Below, piece after piece: positions 41,352 to 63,878 of a stretch of 64,000 bases of DNA. The notes under the pieces were generated by a model. That model was given only the letters and a program-made list of their open reading frames with translations. It was not told the DNA's origin and made no database searches. The stretch's first letter is position 1. The number at the start of each line of letters is the position of its first letter. Made by a program: the position numbers and the translations under genes. Origin of the DNA: an uncultured bacterium (GTDB lineage Bacteria > Fidelibacterota > JAANXI01); the NCBI GenBank assembly GCA_964413425.1, contig CAYPST010000010.1:5070-69069 (forward strand), in the 5' to 3' direction.

Positions 41352-41360
41352 AGCAGCAGC

Positions 41361-42611: not shown

Positions 42612-43063
42612 ATCCCGCGCCTCCCATCTATCATTAATTTGTACTTATCACTGAAGCGATTTTTGTTCAAAACGACCATTCTTATGTAATACATTTTTCG
42701 AGAGACAAGTAAACAAGCGACTGCAACCCCTTCCTGAAACGGGAAGGGGATACCTGCGACATCACAGCCACTCAATTCGGAATAGTGTAACGATTGTGAA
42801 TGATTTATTCAATCGATAAGACAACACTATTCAGACGCCAGGATTTCTCTGATTTTCCGAACAAACGAGCAATTGGGCTGCGCTTCACTGTGAATCCGCA
42901 GTCAAACCGTTGTTGTGAAGAGAGGTGAGTGTTCATAGAAGGCCGGTAATGGAGGGGTGTTAGTTCTGCTAATTCTCTGACTTGTTCACTGCTGTCCGCA
43001 TTGAAGTGCAGGTTGAAATCACATTTCAATGATTAACATTCAGTGCGGTAGGTTTTCTTGATC

Positions 43064-43525
43064 ATGACTATTAAGATACCTCAGTACAATAGCGACATGC
43101 TCCTCCGGGTGGACCATCTCTCCACCCATCCCGGCCCCGATCACTCTATCCCCCTTGACCCTCTTTCTCTCGCCAGAGAAAGGGGGGGCGGGCCCCAAGA
43201 GAGGGGGACCGAGGGGGGGAGTGCCCGCTGCTCCGGTCCACCAAATCGGCCCTCCGCCCGGACTGCCTCGTCGGGAGCGCAACCAGCTCGCTCTTTACGG
43301 AGTTAACTTAATACCTAAGTTGAGCGATACGAGTTTCGCGAAGTATCGCTGTACTTAGGGAAAACCCCGCCCTAGAAAATGTGTGTTTTCACCGAATGGG
43401 TGCGGAACGTCCCGACGCCGTTCTCGGGGAGGTGAACACGTATGCCGACGGCATTCTTCGAACATTTTCTTTTGTCGGTTGAGCGATGTATGGAAATAAA
43501 TCGCTCAATTTGGGTTAATAGTCAT
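43064..43525. mobile_element. composite MITE: MITE-1 (TIR ATGACTATTAAG) with MITE-2 (43314-43514) nested inside its right end, flanked by TTAATA duplication
   Basis: Left TIR at 43064-43075, right CTTAATAGTCAT at 43514/43515-43525. TTAATA at 43308-43313 and 43515-43520 brackets the MITE-2 insert. Confidence 0.6.
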
Positions 43526-43530
43526 ATTCT

Positions 43531-44997: not shown

Positions 44998-45035
44998 ATG
45001 CTCCTCCTGTGAAAGTTCAATTCATCAACACATTT

Positions 45036-46631: not shown

Positions 46632-46685
46632 ACCAACACCTTGGTTCTCTCAGCTAGTAGTTCCAAAGATTTTGGTTTCGGCACG

Positions 46686-48152: not shown

Positions 48153-48259
48153 AATCTCCTGATTGGCTAATTAAAGGTTATGAAACGGCACACGTACTGT
48201 CGTCAACGTGTAGGCTGCGTGGCAGAGCATTGATCACCAAAGCAGATGCCGGTGTGTAC

Positions 48260-48934
48260 CTATGCCACTGCTTCCAGTTTGTTAATCGCGTCAAATGCAT
48301 CTTCCCCGTACAAATCAGCGCCAATTTGTTTCGCAAAATCCTCCGATGTGGGAGCGCCGCCGATGCACACGAGCACTTCATCCCGGATCCCTTTTTCTTT
48401 GAGCAGGTCAACTACCTCTTCCATATGTCCCATGGTTGTCGTCAGGAGCGCAGAGAGCCCGAGATATTTGGCCCGGGAATTCTCCACAGCTGTTACCACG
48501 TCTTCGGCTTCCACTCCGACTCCCAGGTCCTCCACCTCAAAACCGGAACCACGGAGCAAAGTTGAGACAATATTTTTACCTATATCATGGAGATCGCCTT
48601 CCACGGTGGCGATGATAAATTTCCCGCGGCTGTTGATATCACCTTCAACCAGGAGTGGTTCCAGAATTTTGGTTGCTTCACTGACGCACTCTGCCGCTGC
48701 CAGCATATCGGGAATCAAGTACTCGCCGCTCTCATAGCGCCGGCCGACTTCTTCCATACCGGGACTCACCGCCTCATTTAAAATAGTCGACGGCGCTAAG
48801 GAATCCTCCAGACCTTGCTGCACCAGCTCAATCACACCAGGTTCACCCGCCATATCACCATCAAATCCTTCATCCGCGCTGTCGATGCGTCCATCAATCA
48901 CATTCTTCTTGATTTGTTCCAGGATGTCTGACAT
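48260..48934 (-). CDS. cobalamin-binding corrinoid protein (MtgC/MtbC-like)
   Basis: B12-binding DxHxxG (GDLHDIGKN), SALL, GGA motifs, N-terminal helical cap. Start ATG at 48934 with SD AAGGAGA. Confidence 0.85.
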   Translation of the reverse strand: MSDILEQIKKNVIDGRIDSADEGFDGDMAGEPGVIELVQQGLEDSLAPSTILNEAVSPGMEEVGRRYESGEYLIPDMLAAAECVSEATKILEPLLVEGDINSRGKFIIATVEGDLHDIGKNIVSTLLRGSGFEVEDLGVGVEAEDVVTAVENSRAKYLGLSALLTTTMGHMEEVVDLLKEKGIRDEVLVCIGGAPTSEDFAKQIGADLYGEDAFDAINKLEAVA

Positions 48935-49312
48935 GGGTTCTCCTTTTATTGTTTGATTTGCCTGAGTATTCCAAAAAATCAGCACACAGATTCACACGGA
49001 AAAAAACGGAGGATCGCAGATTATCCACACATCCCAACACCTCGAAGTATATAGGTGCATAAGTACATACGTGTCGGCGATTGTATGGTAAATTAACCAT
49101 GAATTATCGACTCCGGAGTAGTAATGCAGGAAAGAGCGACGCTTGCAGCCTCTATGCACTTATGTCCGTATGTACCCGATGAAGTGCAGGTGTGAGGCCT
49201 CCTTCCTCTTGCCTCTTTACTCATTCCTATTGTTAAATCGCTATTCATCCTTTTTTTCCGTGTTCATCTGTGTGCTATGCTTTTCATCGCAAGAATACTT
49301 CGGATTTGTATG

Positions 49313-50887
49313 TTATTTAAGTTCAAATCTCTCCCTGGGTAACAGACCGGGACACTCAGCAAGTAGTTTGTTTAACACTTCCGGTTCAATTGGTTGTCCG
49401 GGTTGTGCCATAATTTCTTGAAGACGATCCTGTGCTTTGATTAGCACCTGATCTTCCATTTCGTCAGTTTCGAACGGATACGGTGAGGAGACCAATCCCT
49501 TCCTCCGGGCTTTGCGGAAAGATCGTGCGAACAGTTTGGTGGGAGAATCGACCGTGCGTCGAATCCCCTGAACAGCGGTATCGACCTCCTCTTTTCCAAA
49601 GATGGGCTGGCGCAGAATTTCCCGGATAATCCCGAGGTGGGCATCGTCAAGTACTGCCTGTAAAGGCGAAAAGGTGTTCGTTTTTTCCAGCAGGCCAATC
49701 GCATAGTGGATATATTGTGCGCCTGCTGCCGCCACTTCCAGCTGGGAAAAGAGTTTTTCGACAGTGGCCTGTACTCCGGGCACCTTTGCATCACCGACCC
49801 CGGCAGAGGAATAGCAGGGAATACCATAATGGCGGGCCATTTGAATACAATCGACATTATAGTGGATAAATTCCGGTGCGCCGTAGAAATCATGCAGGGT
49901 GTCCTGACGGGCGCGCACCGGCACAGCGCCATATAACACCGGGGTCCCGGGATTGGTAAGCTGCGTCAACGCGATCCCTGCCAGCAGTTCGGCATTAATC
50001 AGAGACACCATCCCTTCTTCCTGGACGGGTGCTGTTGAGCCGCCCTGGGGCGAGCTGGAGATCGCCACCGGAATACCTTGTTCAGCGATCCGAATTAATT
50101 TTTCCGTGGTATCATCCACCATCTGCAACGGGCTCTTTATCACACAGGTGATAAAAGATATAATCGGATTCTGGCGAAGTGCTTCTTCGCCCCCGGCGAT
50201 ACGTTCGGCTAACTGTATGACCGTATCCAGAGATCGGAGATCTTCCAGGCCGGCCTGGACATGTTTGGTCATGTACATTAACGCCGCCATGAACATATTG
50301 ACATCTTTGTTTTCCGGCGTGATGTCCGGGTCCTGGATATTGACATTCCGGATGAAGAAATCCACATGATCTAACGCATTGCACAATTTTGCAGATTGAC
50401 AGAGATGCAGCAGTGAGCCTCGTTCCCTGTGAAAAGCGACACCTTGCTTCTCAATGGACGGCGCATCCTTTTTCACATAAGTCGTTAACTCGGATTGGAG
50501 TATGTGATTGGTTTCCGCGCCGGTCCCGAAATACACCATCGGTTCCGCAGCATTGAGTTGTAAGGTGTTGTCCGGGTTCCGGGCACCGAGCATCACTTCG
50601 GTGGGAACCGTCTCCAGTATCCGGGTGATCACCTCTTCCGGGAAACGAATATTCCAGATCGTTTGATGGGTGCTTTCCTCCCGGACATCGCATCCCGCAT
50701 TCCCATAGATTTCCGCAGCATGAGCGTTGTGGCACACAATCCCGGGATCCGCCAGAATATCCAGCGAGGCCTCATGCAGCATTTGCACCTGATCCTCGTC
50801 GATGCGCACCCGCGGCTGAACCAGGGTACCGGGCCTGACTTTCCGTTCGCTCATGCTTTCCGGGGATGAGGTCACTTTACCTGACAT
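49313..50887 (-). CDS. MttB-family methyltransferase paralog 2, non-pyrrolysine
   Basis: 524 aa; YFGTGAETN, IPVAISSSPQGGSTAP, GIPCYSSAGVGD blocks. Confidence 0.8.
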   Translation of the reverse strand: MSGKVTSSPESMSERKVRPGTLVQPRVRIDEDQVQMLHEASLDILADPGIVCHNAHAAEIYGNAGCDVREESTHQTIWNIRFPEEVITRILETVPTEVMLGARNPDNTLQLNAAEPMVYFGTGAETNHILQSELTTYVKKDAPSIEKQGVAFHRERGSLLHLCQSAKLCNALDHVDFFIRNVNIQDPDITPENKDVNMFMAALMYMTKHVQAGLEDLRSLDTVIQLAERIAGGEEALRQNPIISFITCVIKSPLQMVDDTTEKLIRIAEQGIPVAISSSPQGGSTAPVQEEGMVSLINAELLAGIALTQLTNPGTPVLYGAVPVRARQDTLHDFYGAPEFIHYNVDCIQMARHYGIPCYSSAGVGDAKVPGVQATVEKLFSQLEVAAAGAQYIHYAIGLLEKTNTFSPLQAVLDDAHLGIIREILRQPIFGKEEVDTAVQGIRRTVDSPTKLFARSFRKARRKGLVSSPYPFETDEMEDQVLIKAQDRLQEIMAQPGQPIEPEVLNKLLAECPGLLPRERFELK

Positions 50888-51144
50888 TTCCTATTGTTCC
50901 GGCACGTTTTATAACGGCAACTGAGTTTGCTTCCCGGGCAGAGAGAGGGAAGGGCATCCCTCTCCTTCCGAAGGAGAGGGAAAGAGGGAGGTTATTGTCT
51001 CCCGCTGCTAGTTCCTCCCTTATCGCCACAACGTGAGCGCTCTCGTCTGGCACCTTTGGAATGCACTGAATTATCTTAAAAGCCATCTTTAGTAATTCGT
51101 GTCAATCCGTGTTAATTAGTGGTTCCATTCCTTGTCTACTTACG

Positions 51145-51957
51145 TTACTGCGTAAATAACCCCTGTCTCTCCGCCCGGGAATAATGCCGGCAGTATCGAT
51201 CTTGTCCGGCGAACAGTTCCCCCAGCAGTATGGCTCTTTGAATCTCCGGATCCGTAGGATCACAAATGGCCGAATCGAGTCCGTGTGGGATGGCGTTGAG
51301 AAGAAACGCGGCATTCAGCACGGTTCGGGATCGCAGCCCGAACGAGATGTTCGATACGCCAACCGTTATTCTTGAGTCCGGGAATTCACTTCTGAACCGA
51401 TGCACGGCTTCCAGAGCAACCTTCCCGAACGTATGATCCGAGGAGAGAGGCATCGCCAGGGGATCAAACAGAATATTCTCTGCCGGTATGTCGAACTTTC
51501 CGGCCTCTTCGTGAATTGCCCGGCAATTCTCGATTTTCTCGTCTACTGTCTTGGGCATGGTTTCACCGCCCATGGCCAGTGCAATCATCGGCATGCCTTC
51601 CCGGGCAACCAGCGGTAAGAGTTCCTGTAAAATCCGTTCCTCATTTTTAATGGAGTTCAGAAGCCAGCCCCGGTTTCCGTTAAGATACGCAGCCGCTTTT
51701 TGTATGATCTCCGGCTCTGCAGAATCGATGCTGAATGGTTTGTCCGTGCATTCCAGTGCAATGTCAATTAACCAGGACATGTCAGCGATTTCTTGCCGGG
51801 GATCCCCGCTGCCGGTGCCGGCATTCAGATCGATGTAATCAGCACCTGCTTCATCCTGTGAGGCGATCTGATCGCGTATGACCGCATCATCCCGATTCTT
51901 AATGGCCTCTGCAATGACAGTCCTTGTGGCGTTGACTTTTTCACCGATAACTAGCAT
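51145..51957 (-). CDS. methyltetrahydrofolate:corrinoid methyltransferase (pterin-binding, MtrH/MtgA/AcsE-like)
   Basis: LVIGEKVN N-terminus (IGERIN-like), DLNAG, pterin-binding barrel pattern; 270 aa. Confidence 0.75.
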   Translation of the reverse strand: MLVIGEKVNATRTVIAEAIKNRDDAVIRDQIASQDEAGADYIDLNAGTGSGDPRQEIADMSWLIDIALECTDKPFSIDSAEPEIIQKAAAYLNGNRGWLLNSIKNEERILQELLPLVAREGMPMIALAMGGETMPKTVDEKIENCRAIHEEAGKFDIPAENILFDPLAMPLSSDHTFGKVALEAVHRFRSEFPDSRITVGVSNISFGLRSRTVLNAAFLLNAIPHGLDSAICDPTDPEIQRAILLGELFAGQDRYCRHYSRAERQGLFTQ

Positions 51958-51964
51958 AATCCCC

Positions 51965-53464
51965 TCAATCTGTACTTACAGGTTCATTCTGAAACAAATC
52001 TGCTTGAATATTTGGGAATGAGCCCCTGAACTGTTCAAGAGTATCCTCTTCAACATACAGGGTGGGGTCTTCCGCGAGGAACTGCTCCACACATTCATGA
52101 GCCTCTTCTGCGGTGGTTCTGCCGCCATTGGTTATCCAGGTTTCCCGCTTGTCCCGGTTGGTCAGGGCGGGCGTATAGTGTTCCTCGTGCATATAAGTCC
52201 GGGTATGGCGCCCCGCGACGAAATTCCCGCCGGGACCGACCTCTTTGATCGTCTCAAAGGCGAGTGTATCAGCGTTCACCTCAATACCTTGCAACACCCG
52301 CATGACCATTCCCAGGATTTCATTGTCGATGATTAATTTCTCTTTACTGACCGTGGTTGCGAACTCCATTAATCCGGCGGCATCGTGGATAAAATCTCCG
52401 CCCGCCATAGCGACCAGAAGATTGTTTATCGCGGACTCGTACCCGCTTTGCGCATCCAGAGTTTTGGAGTCGCTAATCCCGGCGGTCGAGTAGTAGGGAA
52501 AGCCATAGAAGCGGGCCAGCTGGGCACTGGCGGCGTTCAGCATGCCGCTTTCCACCGGTCCGCCCAGGTAGCTGAGATCCTGCATATTTACCGAAGAGGC
52601 CACACTCCCATAGATGGCGGGAGCGCCCGGATCGGCCAGCTGGGTCAGCATGATATGTATAAGTCCGTCGCAATTTTGCATCACCAGCGTCCCTGCCAGG
52701 GTAATAGGCGCCGTGGCTCCGCTGAGCGGCTCCACCGGCACTGCCACCGGAATGCCTTTGCGGGCCAGTTGAATGATAAATTTGCCGTACTTGCTATCCA
52801 ATCGCAGAGGACTGATACCACAGGCGATTATAGAAATAAATGGCCTTTCCCGAAGCCCTTCCGGGCTCCCGGCAAGTTTTTCAGCCATCCTGATGACATC
52901 ATTGACGCCCTGTTGAGTGTATATTCCGCCCATCACGTGTTTGGACGTATACATCATGCCGGTGAGGAACCGGTGCACATCCACGTCTTCCACCGGCAGT
53001 TCAGTGGGGTAGGTGGGGAGCAGCATTACATGGATGTTATCCAGCTGATCAACCAGCCGGACAATATCCACGAGATCCTGTAAAGTGGCGGGACGATTGG
53101 TGTCTTCTCCGTGATCCAGGATGTTCATTGCAGTGCCGCCGGTGCCAAAATAGACATTGCCTGCACCCAGCTGCACGTCCTGATCCGGTTGCCTGCCACA
53201 GAGCGTAACCTGCCGCGGCACCGACGAAATAACATCCATCACCTGGGATTCGTTCAGGCGAACGATGTCTTCCCTGGTATCGATTTCCGCGCCGATTTCG
53301 TCGAATAAGGCGAGTGCTTCCGGTTCCGTGACTTCGAATCCCACTTCTTCCAGGACCCGCATACTGGTATTGTGAATTTGCTGAATATCCTCTGAACTCA
53401 GTGGTTCATACAGCCGGCTCTGTTGGTCGAGTTCCTGTTCAAGTGTGCGAATAATGTCAATCAT
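51965..53464 (-). CDS. MttB-family methyltransferase paralog 3, non-pyrrolysine
   Basis: 499 aa; YFGTGGTAMN, IPVAVPVEPLSGATAP, GFPYYSTAGISD blocks. Confidence 0.8.
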   Translation of the reverse strand: MIDIIRTLEQELDQQSRLYEPLSSEDIQQIHNTSMRVLEEVGFEVTEPEALALFDEIGAEIDTREDIVRLNESQVMDVISSVPRQVTLCGRQPDQDVQLGAGNVYFGTGGTAMNILDHGEDTNRPATLQDLVDIVRLVDQLDNIHVMLLPTYPTELPVEDVDVHRFLTGMMYTSKHVMGGIYTQQGVNDVIRMAEKLAGSPEGLRERPFISIIACGISPLRLDSKYGKFIIQLARKGIPVAVPVEPLSGATAPITLAGTLVMQNCDGLIHIMLTQLADPGAPAIYGSVASSVNMQDLSYLGGPVESGMLNAASAQLARFYGFPYYSTAGISDSKTLDAQSGYESAINNLLVAMAGGDFIHDAAGLMEFATTVSKEKLIIDNEILGMVMRVLQGIEVNADTLAFETIKEVGPGGNFVAGRHTRTYMHEEHYTPALTNRDKRETWITNGGRTTAEEAHECVEQFLAEDPTLYVEEDTLEQFRGSFPNIQADLFQNEPVSTD

Positions 53465-53470
53465 AGTTCT

Positions 53471-54148
53471 TCACGCAGCCTCTCTTCGATATGGACAGGT
53501 ATTCTTTTTACAGGTTCTGCAAGCATTTCTGGTTAATTGTATGCCCTCCTTCCCTCCGATTCCCATGAGCCCGGAGATCGTTTTCCTCGGAGACATCAAT
53601 GCGGTGTCAAGCAGGCGCACTCCGATCCGGTCCGAGGGAAGCAGAGCAAACAGTTTTTCCTGTTCTCCTATCGGCCAGTCACAATAACCCGGACTATAGC
53701 GGAAAGTTGTTGTTTCTTCAGGTTCCAGGGTTTGTTCAATACGGTTTTGAATAGACTGTGCTGTTGTTTCCGCAGCCACCGAAGCAGCCGCATCCAGAAT
53801 AAATCCATAATGCGGCTTACGCTCCATTGTCTCCCGGATCCTTTGATCGACATCCTCACCCAGGGTCAGCAGGAAAACCACCGTCCTGTCGCAGGTAGAC
53901 AACACTTCCGCAAGCATAGGGCTCTCCAGAGGGACATCTCCTTCCAGAATCACCGTGTTCTCTTCAATATGATGGGAAATGATCCGCTCGATTGCCCGGG
54001 GATGCGCCAATTCACAGATCTCCTGCTCGGCGTGCTGCATTTCTGTTGCCACCCGAGCTGACAGGGCATGGACATTTCTTTTCCCTAACCTTCGACACAG
54101 ATCTCGCCCGGAAATTTTGACCGGAATTTTCATATAATCCAAAACCAT
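53471..54148 (-). CDS. standalone MetH-activation-domain-like protein (AdoMet-binding reactivation domain homolog) with C-terminal Cys cluster
   Basis: FRYSPGYCDWPIGEQEKLFALL resembles the MetH RxxPGY..CP.HTEK..L..LL AdoMet-binding motif. C-terminal CRTCKKNTC. Size matches split-MetH activation subunits. Confidence 0.45.
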   Translation of the reverse strand: MVLDYMKIPVKISGRDLCRRLGKRNVHALSARVATEMQHAEQEICELAHPRAIERIISHHIEENTVILEGDVPLESPMLAEVLSTCDRTVVFLLTLGEDVDQRIRETMERKPHYGFILDAAASVAAETTAQSIQNRIEQTLEPEETTTFRYSPGYCDWPIGEQEKLFALLPSDRIGVRLLDTALMSPRKTISGLMGIGGKEGIQLTRNACRTCKKNTCPYRREAA

Positions 54149-54790
54149 TTTTATCTTCTCATGACCTGTTAACTAATTCTCGAACCCATAATTTCAATCT
54201 CACTAAACCTGCATGTTATGAACATGGAACAGATAACAGTATGATAACGCTTTCTGGCCAAACTTTTATCCACTCCCGTGTCAGCCATATTGTAATGGCT
54301 GACAGACAGTTCTGGTACTGAACCGAAAAACATTTTCTTTTATCTCTCCATGCTCATACCTAAACCTCTATCACTCCTTCTATTATAAATTCACTTTTGT
54401 ATGCACTTCTATATTGTTTTCAAACCAGGTATAGAATTATGCATGCTGCCTACGGTCAGGGGATGTAATGGTGGAAAGGAAGGAAGATGCCTTCTAATCA
54501 GGCAGGCTGTATTAATCCAACTATTTAGGGTAGGTTTCGAATATTTCATGAGTCGGTGTACTTATTTTTCAATTGAAAGCGATGCATGCGCTCAGCATCA
54601 AGTCATATAAATCTTTATACATCTGTTTTTCTCATTGCCTTTTCAACTGCGATTCTGTTCCGGATTCGCTTTCCCTCGATACCTCTCTTATTCCAAAGTT
54701 TCTCATAAGTGTTATAGTTTAGGAAGATGAAATGATAACTTCTACCATTAATCTTAATTGCTTATACACTAGAATTCATTAAAATAGAAT

Positions 54791-56284
54791 ATGTCCGAAA
54801 AAGTAAACATCCGCCTGGAACCCGCAGGAAAAGAATTCCAGGTCAGTTCCGGCACCCGGCTGATGGATGTGGTGCACCAGTACGGCGTGGAATTTCCCTG
54901 CGGCGGAAAAGGTACCTGCGGGGGATGTAAAGTCAGACTACTCACCGGCGATATCCATCTCACCCCTGACCACAGGGAAGCATTGCAGGAGATCGGACTC
55001 ACTGAAGAGTGGCGATTAGCATGTCTCAGTTCCGTCGAAAGTGATGTGGTGCTGGAAGTGGATCAATGGGAGCATATCATCCTGGCAGACAATACCACCT
55101 TCGAGTTCCTTCCGCGTGAAGGGTACGGCATTGCGGTGGATCTGGGCACCACAACCATCGTTTCACAACTGGTGGATCTGTCCGACGGGAATGTGATCAG
55201 CGTTCAGAGAGCCTTAAATCCCCAATCGCGGTATGGGACGGATATTATGTCGAGGATAGAGTTTGGTATACGATCACAGGAGAACGAGGAATTACTTACC
55301 GCCCTCTCCAGAGAGGTTGTCGGACAGCAGATAGAGGATTTGTTGCAGCAATCGGATGGGACGGTTTCCACCATCGTCATTGTCGGAAACACGGTCATGC
55401 ATCATACCTTCTCCGGCATTGACCTGAAGCCGCTTTCCGCGTATCCTTTTCACTCTGCCGACAGTGGAGCCCAAACCTTTCATCCCTTCGACCTTGAGCT
55501 CGACCTTCCCGGTGAGCCGCGTATCACATTCCTCCCCTGTATCGGCGGATTTGTGGGCAGCGATATCCTGGCAGGGATTATGGCAGCCAGGATGCATCGC
55601 AGTGACGAATGGATCGCCTTAATAGATTTAGGCACCAATGGTGAAATCGCCATCGGGAGTAAAGAACGGATCCTCTGTGCTTCGACGGCAGCAGGGCCCG
55701 CGTTTGAAGGCATGAATATCTCCATGGGAATGAGTGCGACCACCGGAGCCATATCTTCGGTATCTGTGGAGGAGGGGAAACTGCGATGTCATGTGATCGG
55801 AGATGAGCGGCCCAGGGGAATCTGCGGGAGTGGATTAATTGATGCCGTTGCTGTGCTGTTACAGGAGGGAAGAATCAATAATCGGGGACGATTTACCGGT
55901 TCTTCCGATACCATCGAATTGCTTTCGCCGGTATATCTCAGCCGAAGAGATATCGGGGAATTTCAGCTGGCGAAGGGCGCCATTGCCACCGGAATGCAAA
56001 TATTAATGGATCAACTCGGACCGGATCATGTGGATCTTCGGCAAGTCTATATTGCCGGAGCCTTTGGTCATTATCTCAATCCGCACAATATCCGGCAAAT
56101 CGGCATGCTGCAGCACGACCCGGATAAGATACAGAAGCTGGGGAACAGTGCATTGATCGGGGCAAAGATGTCTCTGTTTCAGGAATTTGATACCATCAAT
56201 GAGATATTAGAAAAAACCGAGCACATCTCACTGGAATCCGAACCGGACTTTCAACATATTTTTACTGAAAAAATGCTGTTCTAA
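54791..56284 (+). CDS. RamA/RACo-type ATP-dependent reductive activase of corrinoid proteins (2Fe-2S ferredoxin plus ASKHA ATPase)
   Basis: N-terminal CGGKGTCGGCKV...C ferredoxin motif; actin-like ATPase blocks (VDLGTTT, DLGTNGE). Confidence 0.8.
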   Translation: MSEKVNIRLEPAGKEFQVSSGTRLMDVVHQYGVEFPCGGKGTCGGCKVRLLTGDIHLTPDHREALQEIGLTEEWRLACLSSVESDVVLEVDQWEHIILADNTTFEFLPREGYGIAVDLGTTTIVSQLVDLSDGNVISVQRALNPQSRYGTDIMSRIEFGIRSQENEELLTALSREVVGQQIEDLLQQSDGTVSTIVIVGNTVMHHTFSGIDLKPLSAYPFHSADSGAQTFHPFDLELDLPGEPRITFLPCIGGFVGSDILAGIMAARMHRSDEWIALIDLGTNGEIAIGSKERILCASTAAGPAFEGMNISMGMSATTGAISSVSVEEGKLRCHVIGDERPRGICGSGLIDAVAVLLQEGRINNRGRFTGSSDTIELLSPVYLSRRDIGEFQLAKGAIATGMQILMDQLGPDHVDLRQVYIAGAFGHYLNPHNIRQIGMLQHDPDKIQKLGNSALIGAKMSLFQEFDTINEILEKTEHISLESEPDFQHIFTEKMLF

Positions 56285-57903: not shown

Positions 57904-58347
57904 TTGCCGATTATAACATTATCAATATATAATGGTCCGATACTGGAAGAAGAGGGCCCTCTGGTTCTGGTCGTGGATGATGAGGAGAGTGTGCTGCGGA
58001 ATGTTGGCCGCATCCTCCAGATCAATAATTATCGAGTAATGACGGCCGCGACCGGGGAAGCAAGTTTCAATCTGGCCCGTGAACATAAGCCGGACGTTGT
58101 GGTGATGGATATTGCAATGCCCGGATTAACAGGAGTCGAAGCGGTGAAAGTGTTGAAGAAGCATCAGCGCACCAGTGATATCCCTGTTATTATGATGACG
58201 GCATATGCCACTGAGGATTATGTGATGTTTTCTAAACAGGCCGGAGCTGACGATTATATTGCGAAACCTTTTCGTGCTTCGACACTTGTTCGAAGAATAG
58301 AGCGTATTTTAGATACACCGTCCTCTACAGCGGGAGAAAAGAGTTGA
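57904..58347 (+). CDS. single-domain response regulator (REC only)
   Basis: VVDDEE acidic pocket, phospho-acceptor D in VVVMDIAMPG, conserved T and K. Apparent TTG start. Confidence 0.7.
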   Translation: MPIITLSIYNGPILEEEGPLVLVVDDEESVLRNVGRILQINNYRVMTAATGEASFNLAREHKPDVVVMDIAMPGLTGVEAVKVLKKHQRTSDIPVIMMTAYATEDYVMFSKQAGADDYIAKPFRASTLVRRIERILDTPSSTAGEKS

Positions 58348-58492: not shown

Positions 58493-61400
58493 TTGAGACG
58501 TACAATGAATCTCCGGAGATTATTAACCGAGAAACAATTCAGGATGACAGTCCTCATATCCGTATTGCTCGGCATTTTGTATGGAGTCGTTGATGCAGCC
58601 CTGGATGCGTATGTCTTTTATGGGGGGCAATTCCTCGAACTGGCAATCTATGAAGTACCCCCGCATGAAATATATGTCCGGGGCATATCCCTGGCGATTT
58701 TTGTTGCTTTCGGCGTAATTCTGGGTGTATTACGCCACCATCATCAACAGGAATTGCAGCATCACAACGATCAGGATCTGAGAATACTCCAGGGGATGGG
58801 ATGTGGCCTGATTACCACCGATTGTGCGGGGAACATCACCTTTCTGAATACGGCTGCTCAACAGCTTACCGGCTGGCGCGAGGGAGAAGCCACAGGCAAG
58901 CATTATTCTGATGTCTTCCGCATTCCGGCTGCGGATATGATCACCCCGGTGATCCAGGAGCATCGGATTGTCGAATCGCTTGATGGCAACCAGTTGGTTT
59001 CAAAAGAAGGCCATGAATCGCTGATCACTTACACGGTCGCTCCCAGGTATCATTCCGGGAACATCAGCGGTGCGATCATCACCTTTCACGAGAACACTCC
59101 CAGAGATGAATTAACCGGAAAAATTCGTGAAAACGAGGAGCTCCACCGTCTGGTTCTGAGGGAAATCAGTGATACTGTTCTTATCACGGATGACCAGGGC
59201 GAATTTACATACGTCTGTCCTAATGTGGAAGTGATTTTCGGTTATACTCCACAGGAAGTGAACGCCATGGGTTCAATCACGGTGTTAATGGGAGAGGTGC
59301 AGATGGAGCCGTCGGAAGTGGAAAAACTCGGTGAACTCCGAAACCTGGAACACACCATCATTGATAAATCCGGCCATGCTCACCATCTGCTGACCTCGGT
59401 CAAGGCAGTCGATATTCAGGGGGGCACTCTTCTCTATACCTGCCGGGATATCAGTGACCGCAAAGCGGTGGAAGAGGAGCTGCAGTTCCACTCCCGGATG
59501 TTGAACCAGGTGGGCGAAGCGGTGATTGCTACCGATCCGGCAGGGGAAATCATCTACTGGAATACGACTGCGGAGGTTCTCTACGGATGGAGCCGGAGTG
59601 AAGCTGTGGGCAAAAACGTTGTTGAAGTTACCACTACACCGGAGGTTGCCGAGGGGGCCGAGGAAATAATCCAAACGCTGCGGAACGGGCAATGCTGGTC
59701 CGGCACATTTCCGGTGCGGCGGAAGGATGGCAGTGTTTTCCAGGCTTTCGTCACCGATGCTCCGGTGCTGGACAGCAATGGGAACCTTGCTGCGATTATC
59801 GGAACCTCCAGAGATATTTCCGAACAAGTTGCGGCCTATACAGCCCTTAAGGAGAGCGAAGCACAATTCCGTACCATCTTTGAGGAAGCCCCCATCGGAA
59901 TGGCACTGGTAGATGAATCCGGCATTTTTCTGGAAGTCAATAGCAACCTCTGTCGCCTGTTGGGGTATTCGAAGGAAGAATTGTGTACCAAAAACTGGGA
60001 GGATCTCACCCATCCGGATGATCTCCAAAAGAATAAACGGGAAGCAACCCGGCTGATTTCCGGCGAAATATCCAGCCTGCAATTAGAAAAAAGATATATC
60101 ACAAAGCACGGGACTACCATGTGGGCAAATGTGAGTGTATCCCTGGGGGGCACAATTGAAGATCGAGTATTTCAGATTACCATGATAGAAGACATTACCA
60201 GCCAGAAACAGGCGGAACGTGCGTTAATGGACAGTGAAACCCGGTTCCGGAATATCTGGGAATGTTCCCCGGAAGCCATGTGTCTTACTGATGCGGAAGG
60301 GGTTCTCATGCTGGTGAATCCGGCATTTGCCCGGTTGGTGAACATCGACAGTGAGAAGTTGGTCGGCACCTCGTTTATCGAATTATTCCAGGAGAGTGAC
60401 CGGCAGGAGTATTTGCAGCAATACCGGGAATATTTTCGCAGGGAGGGTTTACCGGACACCATTGAAGAAGAAGTCACCTTTGTTGGTGAGAAAACGAAAT
60501 ACCTTGAGATTACCAATTCCTTCATGGAATTCGGGGATGATCGACAACCACTGTTGTTCAGTATTATTCGCGATTTGACTGTGCAGAAATCCATGGAACA
60601 AGAACTGATCCAGGCACAAAAGCTGGAATCACTGGGAGAAATCGCTGGTGGGATTGCACATGATTTCAACAATGTATTAACTGCCATTGATATTCCCGCA
60701 CATATCCAGGAAACGCAAAATACACAAAAGGAACTGGACCAGTATATTAAGATCATTCAGTCAAGTCTTGAGTGGGGTAAATCAGTTACGGAACGTATGC
60801 TGACATTTATTCGCTCCACCGAGCCGAAGAAGCAGGTGATTTCTCTGGAATCTTTTTTAAACGACTTCAAAGAAATTGCCGTCCATACTCTTCCGCCTTA
60901 TGTGAATCTGCGAATCCTGTCAGGTACGGAACCTGATGGAATTCTGGCTGATCCCGGACAGTTGCAGCAAATACTCTTCACATTGTGTATCAATGCGTCA
61001 GATGCCATGCCCAGGGGTGGCACGATCACGCTTGGATTCCGCGAACTGAGTGAAGAAGAACTCCAAAAACACGCCAGCGGTCGCCGGGATAGCTATCGCT
61101 GTTTGCTTGTCGAGGATGAAGGGGATGGGATGAATAGTGAAACATTGCACCATATTTTTGAGCCATTTTTTACAACCAAGAGTCCTGAGATAGGGACCGG
61201 ACTCGGGTTGGCAGTGGTGAAGAAACTTGTGCACATGCATCAGGGATGGATTGACGTTTCCAGTGAACCTAGAGCAGGCACCAGGTTCATAATCGGACTG
61301 CCTGCGGCGAAAACGCCTTCTGACCGCATCCGAACGACCACAGAACATAGGGAGGAAAGTCTGCCTGCTGGCAATGGTGAGACGCTCTTACTGGTAGAGG

Positions 61401-61771
61401 ATGAACGAAGCATCCTGAACGCCTTATCTAAATCATTTGAACATCTGGACTATAAAGTACTTACCGCTTCCAGTGGTACCGAGGCGGGAATTCGGATGAA
61501 GGAAAATCCCGGAAAGATCGATATGTTGATCACGGATATCGGACTGCCGGATATGAACGGCCGGGAGCTTGTCTTCAAATTCAAAGCACTTTTTCCTCAT
61601 GCACCAGTCATTGTCACAACCGGATATGTGGATGAATCGCTGAAGGATGAACTCTATGCCGCCGGAGTGAACAAAATCGTAACAAAGCCTTTCAATATTC
61701 GAACTATCTCACCCGTGATCAGACGTTTATTCAAACAGAGACCGGTAATGGAAACTGATCAGAAGGAGTAA
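58493..61771 (+). CDS. membrane-anchored multi-PAS hybrid sensor histidine kinase (HisKA-HATPase-REC)
   Basis: Two N-terminal TM helices, about 5 PAS/PAC domains, H-box GGIAHDFNNVL, ATPase G-boxes, C-terminal receiver (LVEDERS...DMLITDIGLPDMNG). Confidence 0.85.
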   Translation: MRRTMNLRRLLTEKQFRMTVLISVLLGILYGVVDAALDAYVFYGGQFLELAIYEVPPHEIYVRGISLAIFVAFGVILGVLRHHHQQELQHHNDQDLRILQGMGCGLITTDCAGNITFLNTAAQQLTGWREGEATGKHYSDVFRIPAADMITPVIQEHRIVESLDGNQLVSKEGHESLITYTVAPRYHSGNISGAIITFHENTPRDELTGKIRENEELHRLVLREISDTVLITDDQGEFTYVCPNVEVIFGYTPQEVNAMGSITVLMGEVQMEPSEVEKLGELRNLEHTIIDKSGHAHHLLTSVKAVDIQGGTLLYTCRDISDRKAVEEELQFHSRMLNQVGEAVIATDPAGEIIYWNTTAEVLYGWSRSEAVGKNVVEVTTTPEVAEGAEEIIQTLRNGQCWSGTFPVRRKDGSVFQAFVTDAPVLDSNGNLAAIIGTSRDISEQVAAYTALKESEAQFRTIFEEAPIGMALVDESGIFLEVNSNLCRLLGYSKEELCTKNWEDLTHPDDLQKNKREATRLISGEISSLQLEKRYITKHGTTMWANVSVSLGGTIEDRVFQITMIEDITSQKQAERALMDSETRFRNIWECSPEAMCLTDAEGVLMLVNPAFARLVNIDSEKLVGTSFIELFQESDRQEYLQQYREYFRREGLPDTIEEEVTFVGEKTKYLEITNSFMEFGDDRQPLLFSIIRDLTVQKSMEQELIQAQKLESLGEIAGGIAHDFNNVLTAIDIPAHIQETQNTQKELDQYIKIIQSSLEWGKSVTERMLTFIRSTEPKKQVISLESFLNDFKEIAVHTLPPYVNLRILSGTEPDGILADPGQLQQILFTLCINASDAMPRGGTITLGFRELSEEELQKHASGRRDSYRCLLVEDEGDGMNSETLHHIFEPFFTTKSPEIGTGLGLAVVKKLVHMHQGWIDVSSEPRAGTRFIIGLPAAKTPSDRIRTTTEHREESLPAGNGETLLLVEDERSILNALSKSFEHLDYKVLTASSGTEAGIRMKENPGKIDMLITDIGLPDMNGRELVFKFKALFPHAPVIVTTGYVDESLKDELYAAGVNKIVTKPFNIRTISPVIRRLFKQRPVMETDQKE

Positions 61772-61775
61772 ACCG

Positions 61776-63878
61776 ATGTCAGTCGAAACCAGTATCGAAA
61801 CCTTCGATCTGCATCTCAACAATGTTTTGGACGGAGGAATCCCGGCACCCTCATTCAATATTCTTGCCGGGCAGCCCGGCACGGGAAAAACCATCTTCTG
61901 TCAGCAGCTGCTTTTCCATCATATCACCACGCATCCGGATTCGTCGGTTTTATATCTCACTACCTTATCGGAACCCCCGGCGAAAATTCTGCGATTTATG
62001 CGCGGCTTTACATTTTTCCATGCTGATCTCATTGGTTCGACTATCCACATCGATGATATTGGGGGAACCCTACGGAAAAATTCTCTCGAAGAGGTGCTGA
62101 AAACCATCCTGAGCAAAGTGCAAAAGGTTGACGCTGAAGTCCTGGTCATAGATTCGTTCAAAGCTATTCGGGACTTTACCGAAGATAAGGAGGTATTTCG
62201 GAAATTTATTTATCGCCTGGCCATTCGGCTGTATAATGAAGGTTGTACCGCCATACTGGTGGGGGAATATGATACACAACGACTGACCAGCGGGGCAGAG
62301 TTTGCCATTGCAGATGGGATTATTTCTCTGACGCTTAAATTGGTTGCCGGAGAGTATCAGCGCACGCTCCAGGTTATGAAACTCCGTGGCCGAAATGCAT
62401 GGCTGGGACCAATACCTTTTATCATCGTACCGGAGGGAATAACAGCGCTGACATCCGGACTGAGCAATCCGGTATCATCGGAATTAAGGAGGAGGACTTG
62501 CGAGCCGACCGGAATTACAGGCCTGGATGCTCTGCTGAATGGAGGACTGTGTCGGGGGCGGGCCATCATTTTGTCCGGCGTCTCAGGGACCGGGAAAACC
62601 ACCTTGTCGCTCCAGATCCTTTCCAATGCCTCTAAGTGTGGGCAGCGAGGCTTGTATTATTCCTTTGAAGAGCCGGCAGCAGATTTATTGACGACAGCAG
62701 CGTCGTTCGGCTGGGAGTTACACTCGAAGCTGGAATCCGGGTTGATAAGACTGGTGCATATCCCCCAAACCGCCATTCGCATTGAAGAGAACCTAAAAGC
62801 TATCCGGGACGACATCGAGGAATTTCAGCCTGACTGGGTCGTACTGGATTCCTTTTCGTTGTTTCTCCACCGCGTGAAAAACGATGCCATAATTCGGGAG
62901 AAGACCTATCAGGTGAAAAACATGGTGTACCAGGCAAATGCAGTCGGATTGTTACTCTCGGATATCCCGGCAGACGCACCGGAGCAGTTCTCACGATTTG
63001 GAGTTGAAGAGACCATCGGAGATGGGACAATTCGATTAAGCAGCAAGATGAAACATACAGCCAGGCACAGATTCATAGAAGTGTACAAAATGCGACAGGT
63101 GAACCACGTTACCGGACAACATCGCATGGAAATTTCCGGGAACGGAATCGAAGTGATGTATATACCACCTTCAAACCATGGAAAGTTGAAATCCCCTTCG
63201 CCCCTTACGTTTTCTCCGGTGCAACCACTATTTCATGATGAGATTCGGTACGGATCAGCCTGGCTCGTCCGCGGTCAGGCAGGCATAGGAAAATCCACAC
63301 TCGCACTTCAGTTCGCTGCGGAAGGATTACAAAACGGAGAATCCGTATTGTTTATCACTGCCGATACGATACAAAATGGATTGGAAAAAATGAACATTCA
63401 ACCGGAACAGTATCAAAAAAAGCACAAGTTTCATCTGCTGGATGGGTATAGTGGAAGCCAGAAGGGGCTCAATTTGACAGATGGGAGTGGATTACTGTAT
63501 GTCATTGCCCGGACGATGGAATCCTATGACCCTCCGTTGAGAATTATCTTCGATTCGGTCACCCCGCTGGCAGCCAGTTTTAACAGTGCTCAATTTATTG
63601 ATTTGATACAGCAAAAGAACCGGTTATTGCGTCAACCCGGCGTCGTAATTCTGGATACCCACCTGCATGAGAATATGGATAATGAACCTTTACCGGAATT
63701 ACTTAATGTGTATGATATCGTGATGGATTTGTTCAGTACTGCCGGTGCTGATTTCTCCGAGGGCACTGAAAACCGGAGATATCTGCGAATGAGGAAATCC
63801 AGAGGAGGTCGGACCGATCGGACCGCCGTTCCGTTCTCCATCTCAGCGGAACAAGGTATTGTCATCGATGCCCCCTAA
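61776..63878 (+). CDS. KaiC-like RecA-superfamily ATPase with three tandem KaiC domains
   Basis: Three Walker A sites (AGQPGTGKT at ~res 35, SGVSGTGKT at ~270, GQAGIGKS at ~500), each followed by hhhh-DS Walker B (VLVIDSF, VVLDSFS, IIFDSVT) and a K(M/L)R-G motif. The gene starts 4 bp after the kinase gene. Confidence 0.75.
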   Translation: MSVETSIETFDLHLNNVLDGGIPAPSFNILAGQPGTGKTIFCQQLLFHHITTHPDSSVLYLTTLSEPPAKILRFMRGFTFFHADLIGSTIHIDDIGGTLRKNSLEEVLKTILSKVQKVDAEVLVIDSFKAIRDFTEDKEVFRKFIYRLAIRLYNEGCTAILVGEYDTQRLTSGAEFAIADGIISLTLKLVAGEYQRTLQVMKLRGRNAWLGPIPFIIVPEGITALTSGLSNPVSSELRRRTCEPTGITGLDALLNGGLCRGRAIILSGVSGTGKTTLSLQILSNASKCGQRGLYYSFEEPAADLLTTAASFGWELHSKLESGLIRLVHIPQTAIRIEENLKAIRDDIEEFQPDWVVLDSFSLFLHRVKNDAIIREKTYQVKNMVYQANAVGLLLSDIPADAPEQFSRFGVEETIGDGTIRLSSKMKHTARHRFIEVYKMRQVNHVTGQHRMEISGNGIEVMYIPPSNHGKLKSPSPLTFSPVQPLFHDEIRYGSAWLVRGQAGIGKSTLALQFAAEGLQNGESVLFITADTIQNGLEKMNIQPEQYQKKHKFHLLDGYSGSQKGLNLTDGSGLLYVIARTMESYDPPLRIIFDSVTPLAASFNSAQFIDLIQQKNRLLRQPGVVILDTHLHENMDNEPLPELLNVYDIVMDLFSTAGADFSEGTENRRYLRMRKSRGGRTDRTAVPFSISAEQGIVIDAP

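What the first reader, a model, noticed from the sequence alone, without database searches (positions are those of the whole stretch)
61776..63878. KaiC-like ATPase with three, not two, tandem RecA/KaiC domains
Three complete P-loop domains, each about 230 aa, with Walker A, hhhhDS Walker B and the KaiC-type K(M/L)R-G motif, are readable directly in the 700-aa protein. Canonical KaiC (CI plus CII) and most homologs have two; archaeal ones have one. A triple-domain architecture would form a three-tiered hexameric ring and is, to my knowledge, undescribed or rare.
Basis: seen in the sequence. Interest (0 to 1): 0.65.

Follow-up and report, generated by a model that had tools for sequence, protein, structure and literature searches.

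The report
Three-domain KaiC-like ATPase beside a kinase
This gene really does encode a KaiC-type ATPase with three, not two, tandem ATP-binding modules; it belongs to a widespread but unstudied protein family and sits directly behind a sensor kinase, so it is probably a signalling ATPase and not a circadian clock.

Summary
Window 61776..63878 (+) encodes a 700-aa protein of three tandem KaiC/RecA modules. Each module passes the Pfam PF06745 cut-off of 26.6 bits on its own (116.7, 159.3 and 71.9 bits). Each keeps Walker A, Walker B Asp-Ser, an acidic catalytic residue and a trans-acting Lys-x-Arg motif.

It is not an assembly artefact. The modules share only 18-26% protein identity and no DNA similarity. 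The architecture recurs in at least 120 full-length homologues (694-745 aa) from cyanobacteria, Marinimicrobia, Planctomycetes, Thermoplasmatota and Asgard archaea. So it is not rare in databases, but I found no paper or solved structure describing it.

D1 and D2 correspond to KaiC CI and CII. D3 is a distinct C-terminal module type that also exists as a stand-alone gene. AlphaFold models place D1-D2 and D2-D3 both in CI-CII-like stacking, which fits a three-storey protomer. A hexameric ring is inferred, not shown.

The protein fails the circadian-KaiC equivalog cut-offs, has Glu-Thr where KaiC has Ser431-Thr432, and has no kaiB nearby. In all five members of its subgroup, a large multi-PAS hybrid histidine kinase lies immediately upstream. 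The most likely role is a nucleotide-driven signalling partner of that kinase. I rate it a new variant of a known kind, of moderate interest.

The parts
61776..63878 (+). Gene for the 700-aa three-domain KaiC-like ATPase (stop codon included)
   Evidence: ORF. PF06745 at 337.7 bits with 3 stretches. Identical protein P0001 in the NCBI-derived collection, and at least 120 full-length homologues.
61776..62483 (+). Domain D1 (aa 1-236), CI-like. Walker A G32-T39, catalytic S65-E66, Walker B D126-S127, K202/R204.
   Evidence: 116.7 bits alone. Best PDB match is KaiC CI (78.4 bits against 19.4 for CII). Motifs intact in 42/42 family members.
62484..63188 (+). Domain D2 (aa 237-471), aligned to the CII position. 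Walker A G268-T275, catalytic E298-E299, Walker B D358-S359, K438/R440. E412-T413 sit at the KaiC S431-T432 positions.
   Evidence: 159.3 bits alone. Full-length KaiC aligns to query 106-477. Column counts.
63189..63875 (+). Domain D3 (aa 472-700), the extra family-specific C-terminal module. Walker A G500-S507, A529-D530 in place of Glu-Glu, Walker B D593-S594, K674/R676.
   Evidence: 71.9 bits alone. Acidic residue at position 530 in 42/42 members (Asp 32, Glu 10). The exhaustive search finds 18 cluster representatives at E<=1e-30, then a sharp drop.
61869..61892 (+). D1 Walker A (GQPGTGKT)
   Evidence: G32, P34, G35, G37 and K38 invariant in 42 sequences.
62577..62600 (+). D2 Walker A (GVSGTGKT)
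   Evidence: S270, G271, G273 and T275 invariant; K274 in 41/42.
63273..63296 (+). D3 Walker A (GQAGIGKS)
   Evidence: G503, G505 and K506 invariant; S/T at position 507.
61765..61768 (+). GGAG Shine-Dalgarno, 7 nt before the ATG, directly abutting the kinase stop codon (61769-61771)
   Evidence: Read from the sequence. This suggests translational coupling with the upstream gene (inference).
58493..61771 (+). Upstream partner gene: a 1092-aa membrane-anchored multi-PAS hybrid histidine kinase with a C-terminal receiver domain
   Evidence: PAS x5, HisKA, HATPase_c and Response_reg. A homologous kinase lies immediately upstream of the 3xKaiC gene in 5/5 subgroup loci. The kinases of the window, L081 and L083 share 30-39% identity over ~890-1,060 aa.
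57904..58347 (+). Single-domain response-regulator (receiver) gene upstream of the kinase; probable member of the same signalling module
   Evidence: Receiver-domain hits over aa 20-136. A 125-aa receiver sits in the same relative position in the Marinimicrobia locus L081.

Best explanation
The gene encodes a genuine member of a conserved, widely distributed but uncharacterised branch of the KaiC/RecA superfamily. The protomer is three tandem RecA-like ATPase modules with no other domains. D1 and D2 correspond to KaiC CI and CII. D3 is a divergent third module, probably acquired by fusion with a stand-alone D3-type KaiC gene. Each module keeps a P-loop, the Walker B Asp, at least one catalytic carboxylate and a trans-acting Lys/Arg pair. 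So each tier most likely binds ATP, and probably hydrolyses it slowly, at subunit interfaces of a ring oligomer. By analogy with KaiC that ring would be a hexamer, giving a three-storey ring of about 470 kDa. The gene is translationally coupled to a multi-PAS hybrid histidine kinase, with a single-domain receiver gene just upstream. I infer that the ATPase acts as a nucleotide-state-dependent (and perhaps phospho-state-dependent) partner that gates or times the output of that kinase, much as KaiC controls SasA and CikA. I do not think it is a self-sustained circadian oscillator. Shown here: the domain content, the motif conservation, the family distribution and the kinase linkage. Inferred: the ring oligomer, ATPase activity in all tiers, and the functional coupling to the kinase.
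For: Each domain passes PF06745 alone. Walker A, Walker B, the acidic residue and K-x-R are intact in 41-42 of 42 family members for all three domains, except the second D2 glutamate, which is acidic in 37/42. At least 120 full-length homologues of 694-745 aa span many phyla. D3 is a distinct module type, with 18 cluster representatives at E<=1e-30 and then a sharp drop to generic KaiC domains. A genuine stand-alone D3-type gene sits next to two-domain KaiC genes in L091. The full-length AF2 model has pLDDT 87.8 and pTM 0.78. Its best PDB matches are KaiC protomers, with target-normalised TM 0.78-0.85. A separate D2-D3 model (pLDDT 89.3) superposes on whole CI-CII protomers with query-normalised TM 0.74-0.81 over ~465-490 columns. 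A multi-PAS kinase lies immediately upstream on the same strand in 5/5 subgroup loci, with gaps of -8 to +45 nt, and the three kinases compared are mutual homologues. Signalling genes dominate the neighbourhood in more distant members: HK, REC, GAF, GGDEF-EAL, STAS/RsbR-type modules and KaiB-KaiC. In Pseudomonas, two-domain KaiC homologues are also 'virtually always' next to a histidine kinase (preprint 10.1101/2022.01.26.477890).
Against: No oligomer could be modelled, and no biochemical data exist for any family member. The stacking geometry comes from AlphaFold monomer models, which may be biased by KaiC structures in the training set. D3 has Ala-Asp where KaiC has Glu-Glu and is the least conserved domain (42% against 51% mean pairwise identity), so it may bind nucleotide without turning it over. 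At least one relative (P0138) has a degenerate D3 P-loop. The kinase linkage holds only in the window's subgroup; other members are instead linked to a small uncharacterised protein or to a two-domain KaiC. The 3' neighbour in the window is unknown, because only 122 nt follow the stop codon.
Confidence: 0.6

Rival explanations
1. D3 is a catalytically dead or very slow pseudo-ATPase tier. It binds nucleotide, or nothing, and serves mainly as a docking or regulatory platform for partners such as the kinase, while only D1 and D2 cycle ATP as in ordinary two-tier KaiC homologues.
For: D3 has Ala/Thr-Asp in place of the KaiC Glu-Glu pair. It has the lowest HMM score (71.9 bits) and the lowest conservation. 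One relative, P0138, has lost the D3 Walker A. Inactivated KaiC domains ('iKaiC') are reported in archaeal signalling proteins (PMC5847659).
Against: GK[ST], the Walker B Asp and an acidic residue at position 530 are present in 42/42 members, and K674/R676 in 41/42. That degree of conservation is unusual for a dead site. D1 also has a single carboxylate (Ser-Glu) and is highly conserved.
Confidence: 0.25
2. It is a true KaiC-type timer (circadian or hourglass) that autophosphorylates and dephosphorylates rhythmically, with the third tier adding a further timing layer.
For: The best sequence and structure matches are circadian KaiC proteins. T413, at the position of KaiC T432, is invariant in 42/42 members. 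One family member lies next to a KaiB plus two-domain KaiC pair.
Against: It fails both circadian-KaiC equivalog models (TIGR02655: 177.2 against 546.25; NF006799: 273.2 against 408). The Ser431 position is Glu, and the local D2 motif GVEET resembles CI (GVEEF) more than CII. There is no kaiB and no second kaiC in the 64-kb window. The protein ends with D3, leaving no room for a KaiA-binding C-terminal tail. The host is a non-photosynthetic-looking bacterium with betaine/methyltransferase genes.
Confidence: 0.1
3. The three-domain ORF is an artefact: a misassembled or collapsed repeat, or a frameshift or read-through that fuses a two-domain KaiC gene to a neighbouring single-domain gene.
For: Stand-alone D3-type genes and D2-D3 or D1-D3 variants do exist, so neighbouring genes of this kind could in principle be fused by an error.
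Against: The domains share no DNA similarity and only 18-26% protein identity, so there is nothing to collapse. The same architecture, length and D2-D3 linker motif (PLxFxP) recur in at least 120 independent homologues from many assemblies, including complete genomes such as Calothrix sp. 336/3 CP011382.
Confidence: 0.02
4. It is a DNA-acting RecA-superfamily enzyme (RadA/Sms-, DnaB- or RadB-like repair protein or helicase), or part of an anti-phage defence system.
For: Weak partial hits to RadA/Sms, DnaB_C, RecA and RadB models, and to PADLOC models mad8, AbiO and Nhi.
Against: All of these hits are far below their cut-offs and cover only the P-loop region (for example TIGR00416: 75.8 against 403.05; mad8 positions 27-85 of 314). 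The protein has no zinc ribbon, Lon-like or DnaB N-terminal domain. The neighbours are signalling genes, not repair or defence genes.
Confidence: 0.03

Closest known systems
Circadian clock protein KaiC (Synechococcus elongatus; PDB 2GBL, 1U9I, 7S65 and others)
   Same: Same superfamily and Pfam family (PF06745). D1-D2 align colinearly with CI-CII. The predicted protomer superposes with target-normalised TM 0.78-0.85. Walker A/B, the Glu-Glu pair (in D2) and the Lys/Arg finger are shared. Like KaiC with SasA and CikA, it is genetically linked to a histidine kinase.
   Different: Three modules instead of two. It fails the KaiC equivalog cut-offs. The Ser431 position is Glu and the local motif is CI-like. 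There is no C-terminal KaiA-binding tail and no kaiA or kaiB in the window. D1 has Ser-Glu and D3 has Ala-Asp in place of Glu-Glu.
Non-clock two-domain KaiC-like proteins linked to histidine kinases (e.g. Pseudomonas KaiC homologues, preprint 10.1101/2022.01.26.477890; Legionella and Rhodopseudomonas KaiC, from my own knowledge)
   Same: [quoted passage not shown] Presumed role in stress or signal regulation, not circadian timing.
   Different: Those proteins are ~500 aa with two tiers. This family adds a distinct third module type (D3) that is almost confined to this family.
Archaeal single-domain KaiC-like ATPases (PH0186 2ZTS, PH0284 2DR3, SSO2452 2W0M, ArlH/FlaH 4YDS), the 'KaiC-like signal transduction hubs' of Makarova et al. 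2017 (cited in PMC5847659; paper not readable here)
   Same: Each of D1-D3 is a module of this type. Stand-alone D3-type proteins exist (P0126). The context is dominated by signal-transduction genes.
   Different: Here three such modules are fused in one chain. The ArlH and FlaH models are matched only below their cut-offs (132.6 against 215).
EccC of type VII secretion (three stacked FtsK/SpoIIIE-type ATPase domains per protomer). Comparison from my own knowledge, not tested here.
   Same: An ASCE-class P-loop ATPase with three tandem ATPase modules that stack as tiers in a hexamer. This shows that three-tier rings are physically feasible.
   Different: A different ATPase family (FtsK-HerA, not RecA/KaiC), membrane-anchored and acting as a secretion motor. 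There is no sequence relationship beyond the P-loop fold.

Membership tests
KaiC-like ATPase domain family (Pfam PF06745) | HMM score above the gathering cut-off (26.6 bits), for each putative domain separately | tested here: met
   D1 116.7, D2 159.3 and D3 71.9 bits; whole protein 337.7 bits with 3 stretches.
KaiC-like ATPase domain family (Pfam PF06745) | RecA-type catalytic apparatus: Walker A GxxxxGK[ST], Walker B hhhhD, catalytic carboxylate after strand 2, trans-acting Lys/Arg finger | tested here: met
   Present in all three domains of the query and in 41-42 of 42 family members. D1 and D3 have one carboxylate and D2 has two.
Bona fide circadian KaiC (NCBIfam TIGR02655 circ_KaiC; NF006799) | Equivalog HMM score above the curated cut-off | tested here: not met
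   TIGR02655: 177.2 against 546.25. NF006799: 273.2 against 408.
Bona fide circadian KaiC | Two-domain CI-CII architecture of about 500-520 aa with a C-terminal KaiA-binding tail | tested here: not met
   Three domains, 700 aa. The chain ends 3 residues after the last D3 strand.
Bona fide circadian KaiC | Autophosphorylation sites Ser431/Thr432 in CII | tested here: inconclusive
   The equivalent D2 residues are E412 (40/42 Glu) and T413 (42/42 Thr). Thr is retained and Ser is replaced by Glu. Phosphorylation itself is not testable here.
Bona fide circadian KaiC | Adjacent kaiB (and kaiA in cyanobacteria) | tested here: not met
   tblastn with a KaiB from locus L089 finds nothing in the 64-kb window. 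KaiB is adjacent in only one of the homologue loci examined (L089).
KaiC/RecA-type ring ATPases | Homo-hexameric ring with nucleotide bound at subunit interfaces | not testable with these tools
   Indirect evidence only: conserved trans-acting K-x-R in all tiers, and CI-CII-like stacking of D1-D2 and D2-D3 in monomer models. A hexamer (4200 aa) exceeds the predictor's limit.
Unnamed three-domain KaiC family (this protein's own family) | About 700 aa, D1-D2-D3 order, D3-type C-terminal module, conserved D2-D3 linker PLxFxP | tested here: met
   37-50% identity over 91-100% of the query length to at least 120 clusters. D3 matches the C-terminal ~225 aa of ~700-aa proteins at E from 1e-32 to 1e-59.
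RadA/Sms DNA repair protein (TIGR00416) | Equivalog score; zinc ribbon plus RecA domain plus Lon-like domain | tested here: not met
   75.8 against 403.05 bits, covering the P-loop region only. No other domains were found.
Archaellum protein ArlH/FlaH (NF052589, NF004723) | Equivalog or subfamily score; single-domain protein in an archaellum operon | tested here: not met
   132.6 against 215 and 133.1 against 194 bits. The context is bacterial, with no archaellum genes.
Anti-phage defence ATPases (PADLOC-DB) | Full-length match to a defence-system component | tested here: not met
   Only short local P-loop hits, e.g. mad8 profile positions 27-85 of 314.

The most novel reading that the evidence does not exclude
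This family forms a homo-hexameric ring with three stacked, nucleotide-binding RecA-type tiers. No such architecture has been solved or described for the KaiC/RecA family. It would have arisen by fusing a stand-alone D3-type ring protein onto a two-tier KaiC. The third tier would add a further slow ATPase or conformational state through which the ring gates its cognate histidine kinase: an extended, non-circadian 'KaiC-style' signalling timer found in both bacteria and archaea.
Probability: 0.35. Interest if true: 0.65.

Novelty: new variant of a known kind. Interest (0 to 1): 0.45.

Why it matters
KaiC is the model for how slow ATPase chemistry in stacked RecA-type rings is turned into biological timing and signalling, and all mechanistic work rests on one- and two-tier rings. 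A conserved, phylogenetically broad family with three apparently competent tiers would be a natural experiment on inter-ring communication. It also has a clear genetic partner, a multi-PAS hybrid kinase, which makes functional tests straightforward. The family also shows how KaiC-like 'hubs' diversify by fusion and fission of ring modules. If the third tier is only a docking platform, the family is still a distinct, unannotated signalling component that deserves its own name in databases. The limit on its importance is that this is an architectural variant of a well-known superfamily, not a new principle. It is already present in sequence databases in large numbers, although unrecognised.

Tried and rejected
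1. Literature. Four full-text searches for three-domain, triple or triplicated KaiC phrasing found nothing relevant. Makarova et al. 2017 and Dvornyk et al. 2003 could not be retrieved, so I cannot exclude that they mention such proteins.

2. Source contig. The window's own protein (P0001) is not in the gene-position index, so the genes beyond the window's 3' end could not be seen.

3. Genome scan. The genome-contig scan with the family alignment chose D1/D2 motifs. It was saturated by generic two-domain KaiC homologues, and only L001 (Symploca) was clearly three-domain. It did not reveal the source organism.

4. Structure library. Foldseek against afdb50 was unavailable.

5. Census. The search for homologous proteins with D3 alone returned no hits, not even the self-hit. 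I treat this as a word-index limitation and not as evidence, because the exhaustive search found the family.

6. Organism markers. tRNA and Rfam scans of the window found nothing.

7. Operon boundaries. Promoter and terminator scans around the operon were near chance level and uninformative: 10 promoter-like sites against 10.9 expected, and 14 terminator-like sites against 7.6 +/- 2.9.

8. Small upstream ORF. The family seen in other loci is absent from the window and from the L081 and L083 loci, so it is not a universal partner.

9. Defence-system hypothesis. Rejected.
Full report
OBSERVATION. The window contains an ORF at 61776..63878 on the + strand (ATG start, 700 aa). Pfam assigns it to PF06745 (KaiC) at 337.7 bits with three matched stretches. 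I cut the protein at residues 236/237 and 471/472 and scanned the three pieces separately. Each passes the gathering cut-off of 26.6 bits on its own: D1 116.7 bits (E 1.4e-33), D2 159.3 bits (1.3e-46) and D3 71.9 bits (6.4e-20), each covering almost the whole 231-position model. Walker A reads GQPGTGKT, GVSGTGKT and GQAGIGKS. Walker B reads VLVIDS, WVVLDS and RIIFDS. The Lys-x-Arg motif reads KLRG, KMRQ and KSRG.

NOT AN ARTEFACT. The three modules are old paralogues. D1 and D2 share 26% identity (BLASTP E 4e-14). D3 is only weakly similar to either by BLASTP, and profile-profile comparison gives 18-20% identity at 98.7-99.0% probability. There is no DNA-level similarity between the three segments, so there is no repeat that an assembler could collapse or expand. 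More importantly, the same architecture recurs. A search of 5.8 billion proteins returned the identical protein (P0001, NCBI-derived, on a 70.6-kb contig) and at least 120 further clusters of 694-745 aa, aligned over 91-100% of the query at 38-49% identity. They come from cyanobacteria (Coleofasciculus, Trichocoleus, Calothrix sp. 336/3, Chamaesiphon, Symploca, Aphanothece), Marinimicrobia, Entotheonella, Alphaproteobacteria, Planctomycetes (Alienimonas chondri), Thermoplasmatota, and Heimdall- and Odin-archaeota. Their only annotations are generic: 'ATPase domain-containing protein', 'AAA family ATPase', 'circadian clock protein KaiC' and 'RAD55 family ATPase'.

ANATOMY. Full-length two-domain KaiC structures align colinearly with query residues 106-477. 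D1 alone matches CI much better than CII (78.4 against 19.4 bits). So D1 corresponds to CI, D2 occupies the CII position, and D3 (aa 472-700) is the added C-terminal module. I built a 42-sequence family alignment (A1) and a domain-against-domain alignment, which give the following:
- GK[ST] of Walker A is intact in 42/42, 41/42 and 42/42 sequences for D1, D2 and D3.
- The Walker B Asp is intact in 42/42 for all three domains.
- The trans-acting Lys and Arg (KaiC K224/R226 and K457/R459) are intact in 42/42, 42/42 and 41/42.
- The catalytic Glu-Glu pair of KaiC is kept in D2 (E298 acidic in 41/42, E299 in 37/42).
- In D1 the pair is an invariant Ser-Glu (TLSEP).
- In D3 it is [Ala/Thr/Leu/Ile]-[Asp 32 / Glu 10], so an acidic residue is always present.

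D3 is the least conserved domain, at 42% mean pairwise identity against 51% for D1 and D2, but it is clearly under constraint. At the positions of the KaiC phosphosites S431 and T432, D2 has E412 (40/42) and T413 (42/42), within a GVEET motif that resembles the CI sequence GVEEF. D1 has Phe-Ala at these positions and D3 has no Ser/Thr equivalent. There are no extra domains and no N- or C-terminal extensions.

D3 IS A DISTINCT MODULE TYPE. An exhaustive phmmer search of 1.84 billion cluster representatives with D3 alone gave 323 hits at E<=1e-3, but only 31 at E<=1e-10 and 18 at E<=1e-30. The strong hits are mostly ~700-aa proteins with the match at their C-terminus. Below them the list drops to generic KaiC domains at E of 1e-10 and weaker. 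Variants exist:
- D2-D3 proteins (P0125, 479 aa).
- A D1/D2-chimera plus D3 protein (P0129, 478 aa).
- A relative with a degenerate D3 P-loop (P0138).
- Stand-alone D3-type proteins (P0126 and P0127).

P0126 is a genuine separate gene with its own upstream intergenic region. It lies in a cluster with a HAMP-V4R protein and two separate two-domain KaiC genes, each preceded by a small ORF (L091). The simplest evolutionary reading is that the three-domain protein arose by fusing a D3-type ring protein to a two-tier KaiC homologue. This is an inference.

STRUCTURE. AlphaFold2 with the family alignment gave a confident model (mean pLDDT 87.8, pTM 0.78). It has three RecA-like alpha/beta modules, with low confidence mainly in the D1-D2 linker (residues 229-237) and two D3 loops. 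Foldseek against the PDB finds KaiC protomers first, with target-normalised TM 0.78-0.85. Query-normalised TM is only 0.54-0.59 over ~460-485 columns, so nothing in the PDB covers all three modules. To test the D2-D3 junction I modelled residues 237-700 separately (pLDDT 89.3, pTM 0.83). That model superposes on whole CI-CII protomers with query-normalised TM 0.74-0.81 over ~465-490 columns, which is too high for a one-domain match. D3 is therefore predicted to sit on D2 as CII sits on CI, giving a three-storey protomer. Together with the conserved trans-acting Lys/Arg in every tier, this fits a three-tier ring. The oligomer itself could not be modelled, and the AlphaFold geometry may be influenced by KaiC structures in its training data.

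CONTEXT. The stop codon of a 1092-aa gene (58493..61771, +) lies 4 nt before the ATG, and a GGAG Shine-Dalgarno abuts that stop. That gene encodes a hybrid histidine kinase with N-terminal hydrophobic segments, five PAS hits, HisKA, HATPase_c and a C-terminal receiver. A 147-aa single-domain receiver gene lies just upstream at 57904..58347. I examined the four closest relatives with usable contigs (P0002, P0003, P0004 and P0005). In all four, a 1103-1685-aa multi-PAS kinase lies immediately upstream on the same strand, with gaps of -8 to +45 nt. Counting the window, that is 5 of 5. The kinases of the window, L081 and L083 are homologous to each other over ~890-1,060 residues at 30-39% identity. 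The Marinimicrobia locus also has a 125-aa receiver in the equivalent position. More distant members have other partners:
- A ~120-160-aa ORF with no Pfam hit abuts the 5' end of the 3xKaiC gene, or of an adjacent two-domain KaiC gene. The four bacterial examples form one family, with BLASTP E from about 7e-4 down to 3e-34.
- Neighbouring genes include KaiB plus a two-domain KaiC, an RsbR/STAS plus HATPase_c_2 plus SpoIIE module, GAF-PAS-GGDEF-EAL proteins and further kinases.

The window itself encodes no KaiB, no second KaiC-domain gene and no member of the small-protein family. The host is a bacterium with Gram-negative-type genes (HlyD/RND adaptor, GWxTD protein) and a betaine-transporter/MttB/corrinoid-activase cluster. 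Its identity was not established; the nearest named homologue is from a Marinimicrobia MAG (49% identity).

MECHANISM (best-supported). The protein is a KaiC-superfamily ring ATPase with three nucleotide-binding tiers, co-expressed with a sensor kinase. I consider it most likely (about 0.6) that its nucleotide state, and possibly phosphorylation of T413, controls or is read by the kinase/receiver module. This would parallel KaiC control of SasA and CikA, and the kinase-linked KaiC homologues of Pseudomonas. Shown: domain content, motif conservation, family distribution and gene linkage. Inferred: ring formation, activity of each tier and coupling to the kinase.

RIVALS.
- D3 is a non-hydrolysing docking tier (0.25). 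This is supported by the Ala-Asp substitution and lower conservation, and opposed by the complete conservation of its P-loop, Walker B Asp, acidic residue and Lys/Arg.
- It is a genuine circadian or hourglass timer (0.1). This is opposed by failure of both circadian-KaiC equivalog models (177.2 against 546.25 and 273.2 against 408), Glu at the Ser431 position, and the absence of KaiB and of a C-terminal tail.
- It is an assembly or fusion artefact (0.02).
- It is a DNA-repair, helicase or defence ATPase (0.03). Only sub-threshold P-loop matches support this.

COMPARISON WITH WHAT IS KNOWN. The protein works like, and is a member of, the KaiC-like ATPase superfamily. It is not a member of the circadian KaiC equivalog family, RadA/Sms or ArlH. 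I found no paper describing a three-domain KaiC homologue. Schmelling et al. [quoted passage not shown] Makarova et al. 2017 and Dvornyk et al. 2003 could not be read, so a prior passing mention cannot be excluded. From my own knowledge, three stacked ATPase tiers per hexamer are known in EccC of type VII secretion (FtsK-type domains). The geometry therefore has a precedent among P-loop ATPases, but not within the RecA/KaiC family.

VERDICT. The claim of rarity is wrong: this is a sizeable, cross-domain family sitting unrecognised in databases. It is a new architectural variant of a known kind and a good target for structural and biochemical work. It is moderately, not highly, surprising. Interest 0.45.

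Noticed in passing
L088:5578-5997, L089:5632-5997, L086:3661-4131, L084:5561-6001: An uncharacterised family of predicted helical proteins of ~120-160 aa with no Pfam hit. It abuts the 5' end of the 3xKaiC gene (Coleofasciculus; an 8-Mb genome) or of a two-domain KaiC gene just upstream of it (Alienimonas, Calothrix). Pairwise BLASTP E runs from about 7e-4 down to 3e-34. It is absent from the window. It could be a dedicated KaiC-like partner. The 133-aa ORF in the same position in the Thermoplasmatota locus (L087:5600-6001) is not detectably related.
   Followed up: partly
L091:730-6290: A cluster encoding a stand-alone D3-type single-domain KaiC (P0126, 244 aa), a HAMP-V4R protein, and two repeats of 'small ~120-aa ORF plus two-domain KaiC (474 and 480 aa)'. 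This suggests that D3-type rings can work as separate polypeptides alongside two-tier KaiCs.
   Followed up: partly
L089:3509-13436: In an 8-Mb genome (GCA_964656675.1) the 3xKaiC gene sits between a KaiB plus two-domain KaiC pair and a stressosome-like set (RsbR_N-STAS, STAS, two HATPase_c_2 proteins, SpoIIE phosphatase, RsbU_N-V4R), followed by a hybrid kinase. This is a possible KaiC-partner-switching signalling supercluster.
   Followed up: no
Proteins P0129, P0125 and P0138 (from, sequences): Architectural variants of the family. P0129 (478 aa) looks like a D1/D2 recombinant fused to D3. P0125 (479 aa) is D2-D3 only. P0138 (757 aa) has a low-complexity insert in D1 and a degenerate D3 Walker A (DAGGDSKA).
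   Followed up: no
window 38770-56284: A quaternary-amine utilisation cluster on the minus and plus strands: a fused glycine-betaine/choline ABC permease and binding protein (38770-40383), three MttB-superfamily methyltransferase paralogues all below the trimethylamine equivalog cut-off (46686-48152, 49313-50887, 51965-53464), and a RamA/AcsV-like corrinoid reductive activase (54791-56284). Two asparagine-synthase paralogues lie at 43531-46631.
   Followed up: partly
window 35583-38324: A second large hybrid PAS histidine kinase with a receiver (913 aa, CckA/PRK13557-like hits) about 20 kb upstream. Its relation to the 3xKaiC module is unknown.
   Followed up: no
window 8733-11135, 28754-30826, 5438-7081: Three large ORFs (800, 690 and 547 aa) with no NCBIfam hit at E<=1e-10. 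They were not examined further.
   Followed up: no
tool behaviour: the search for homologous proteins queried with the D3 sub-sequence returned no hit at E<=1e-25, not even the parent protein P0001. The exhaustive representative search found P0001 at 3.7e-149. The word-index search appears unreliable for this sub-sequence query.
   Followed up: no
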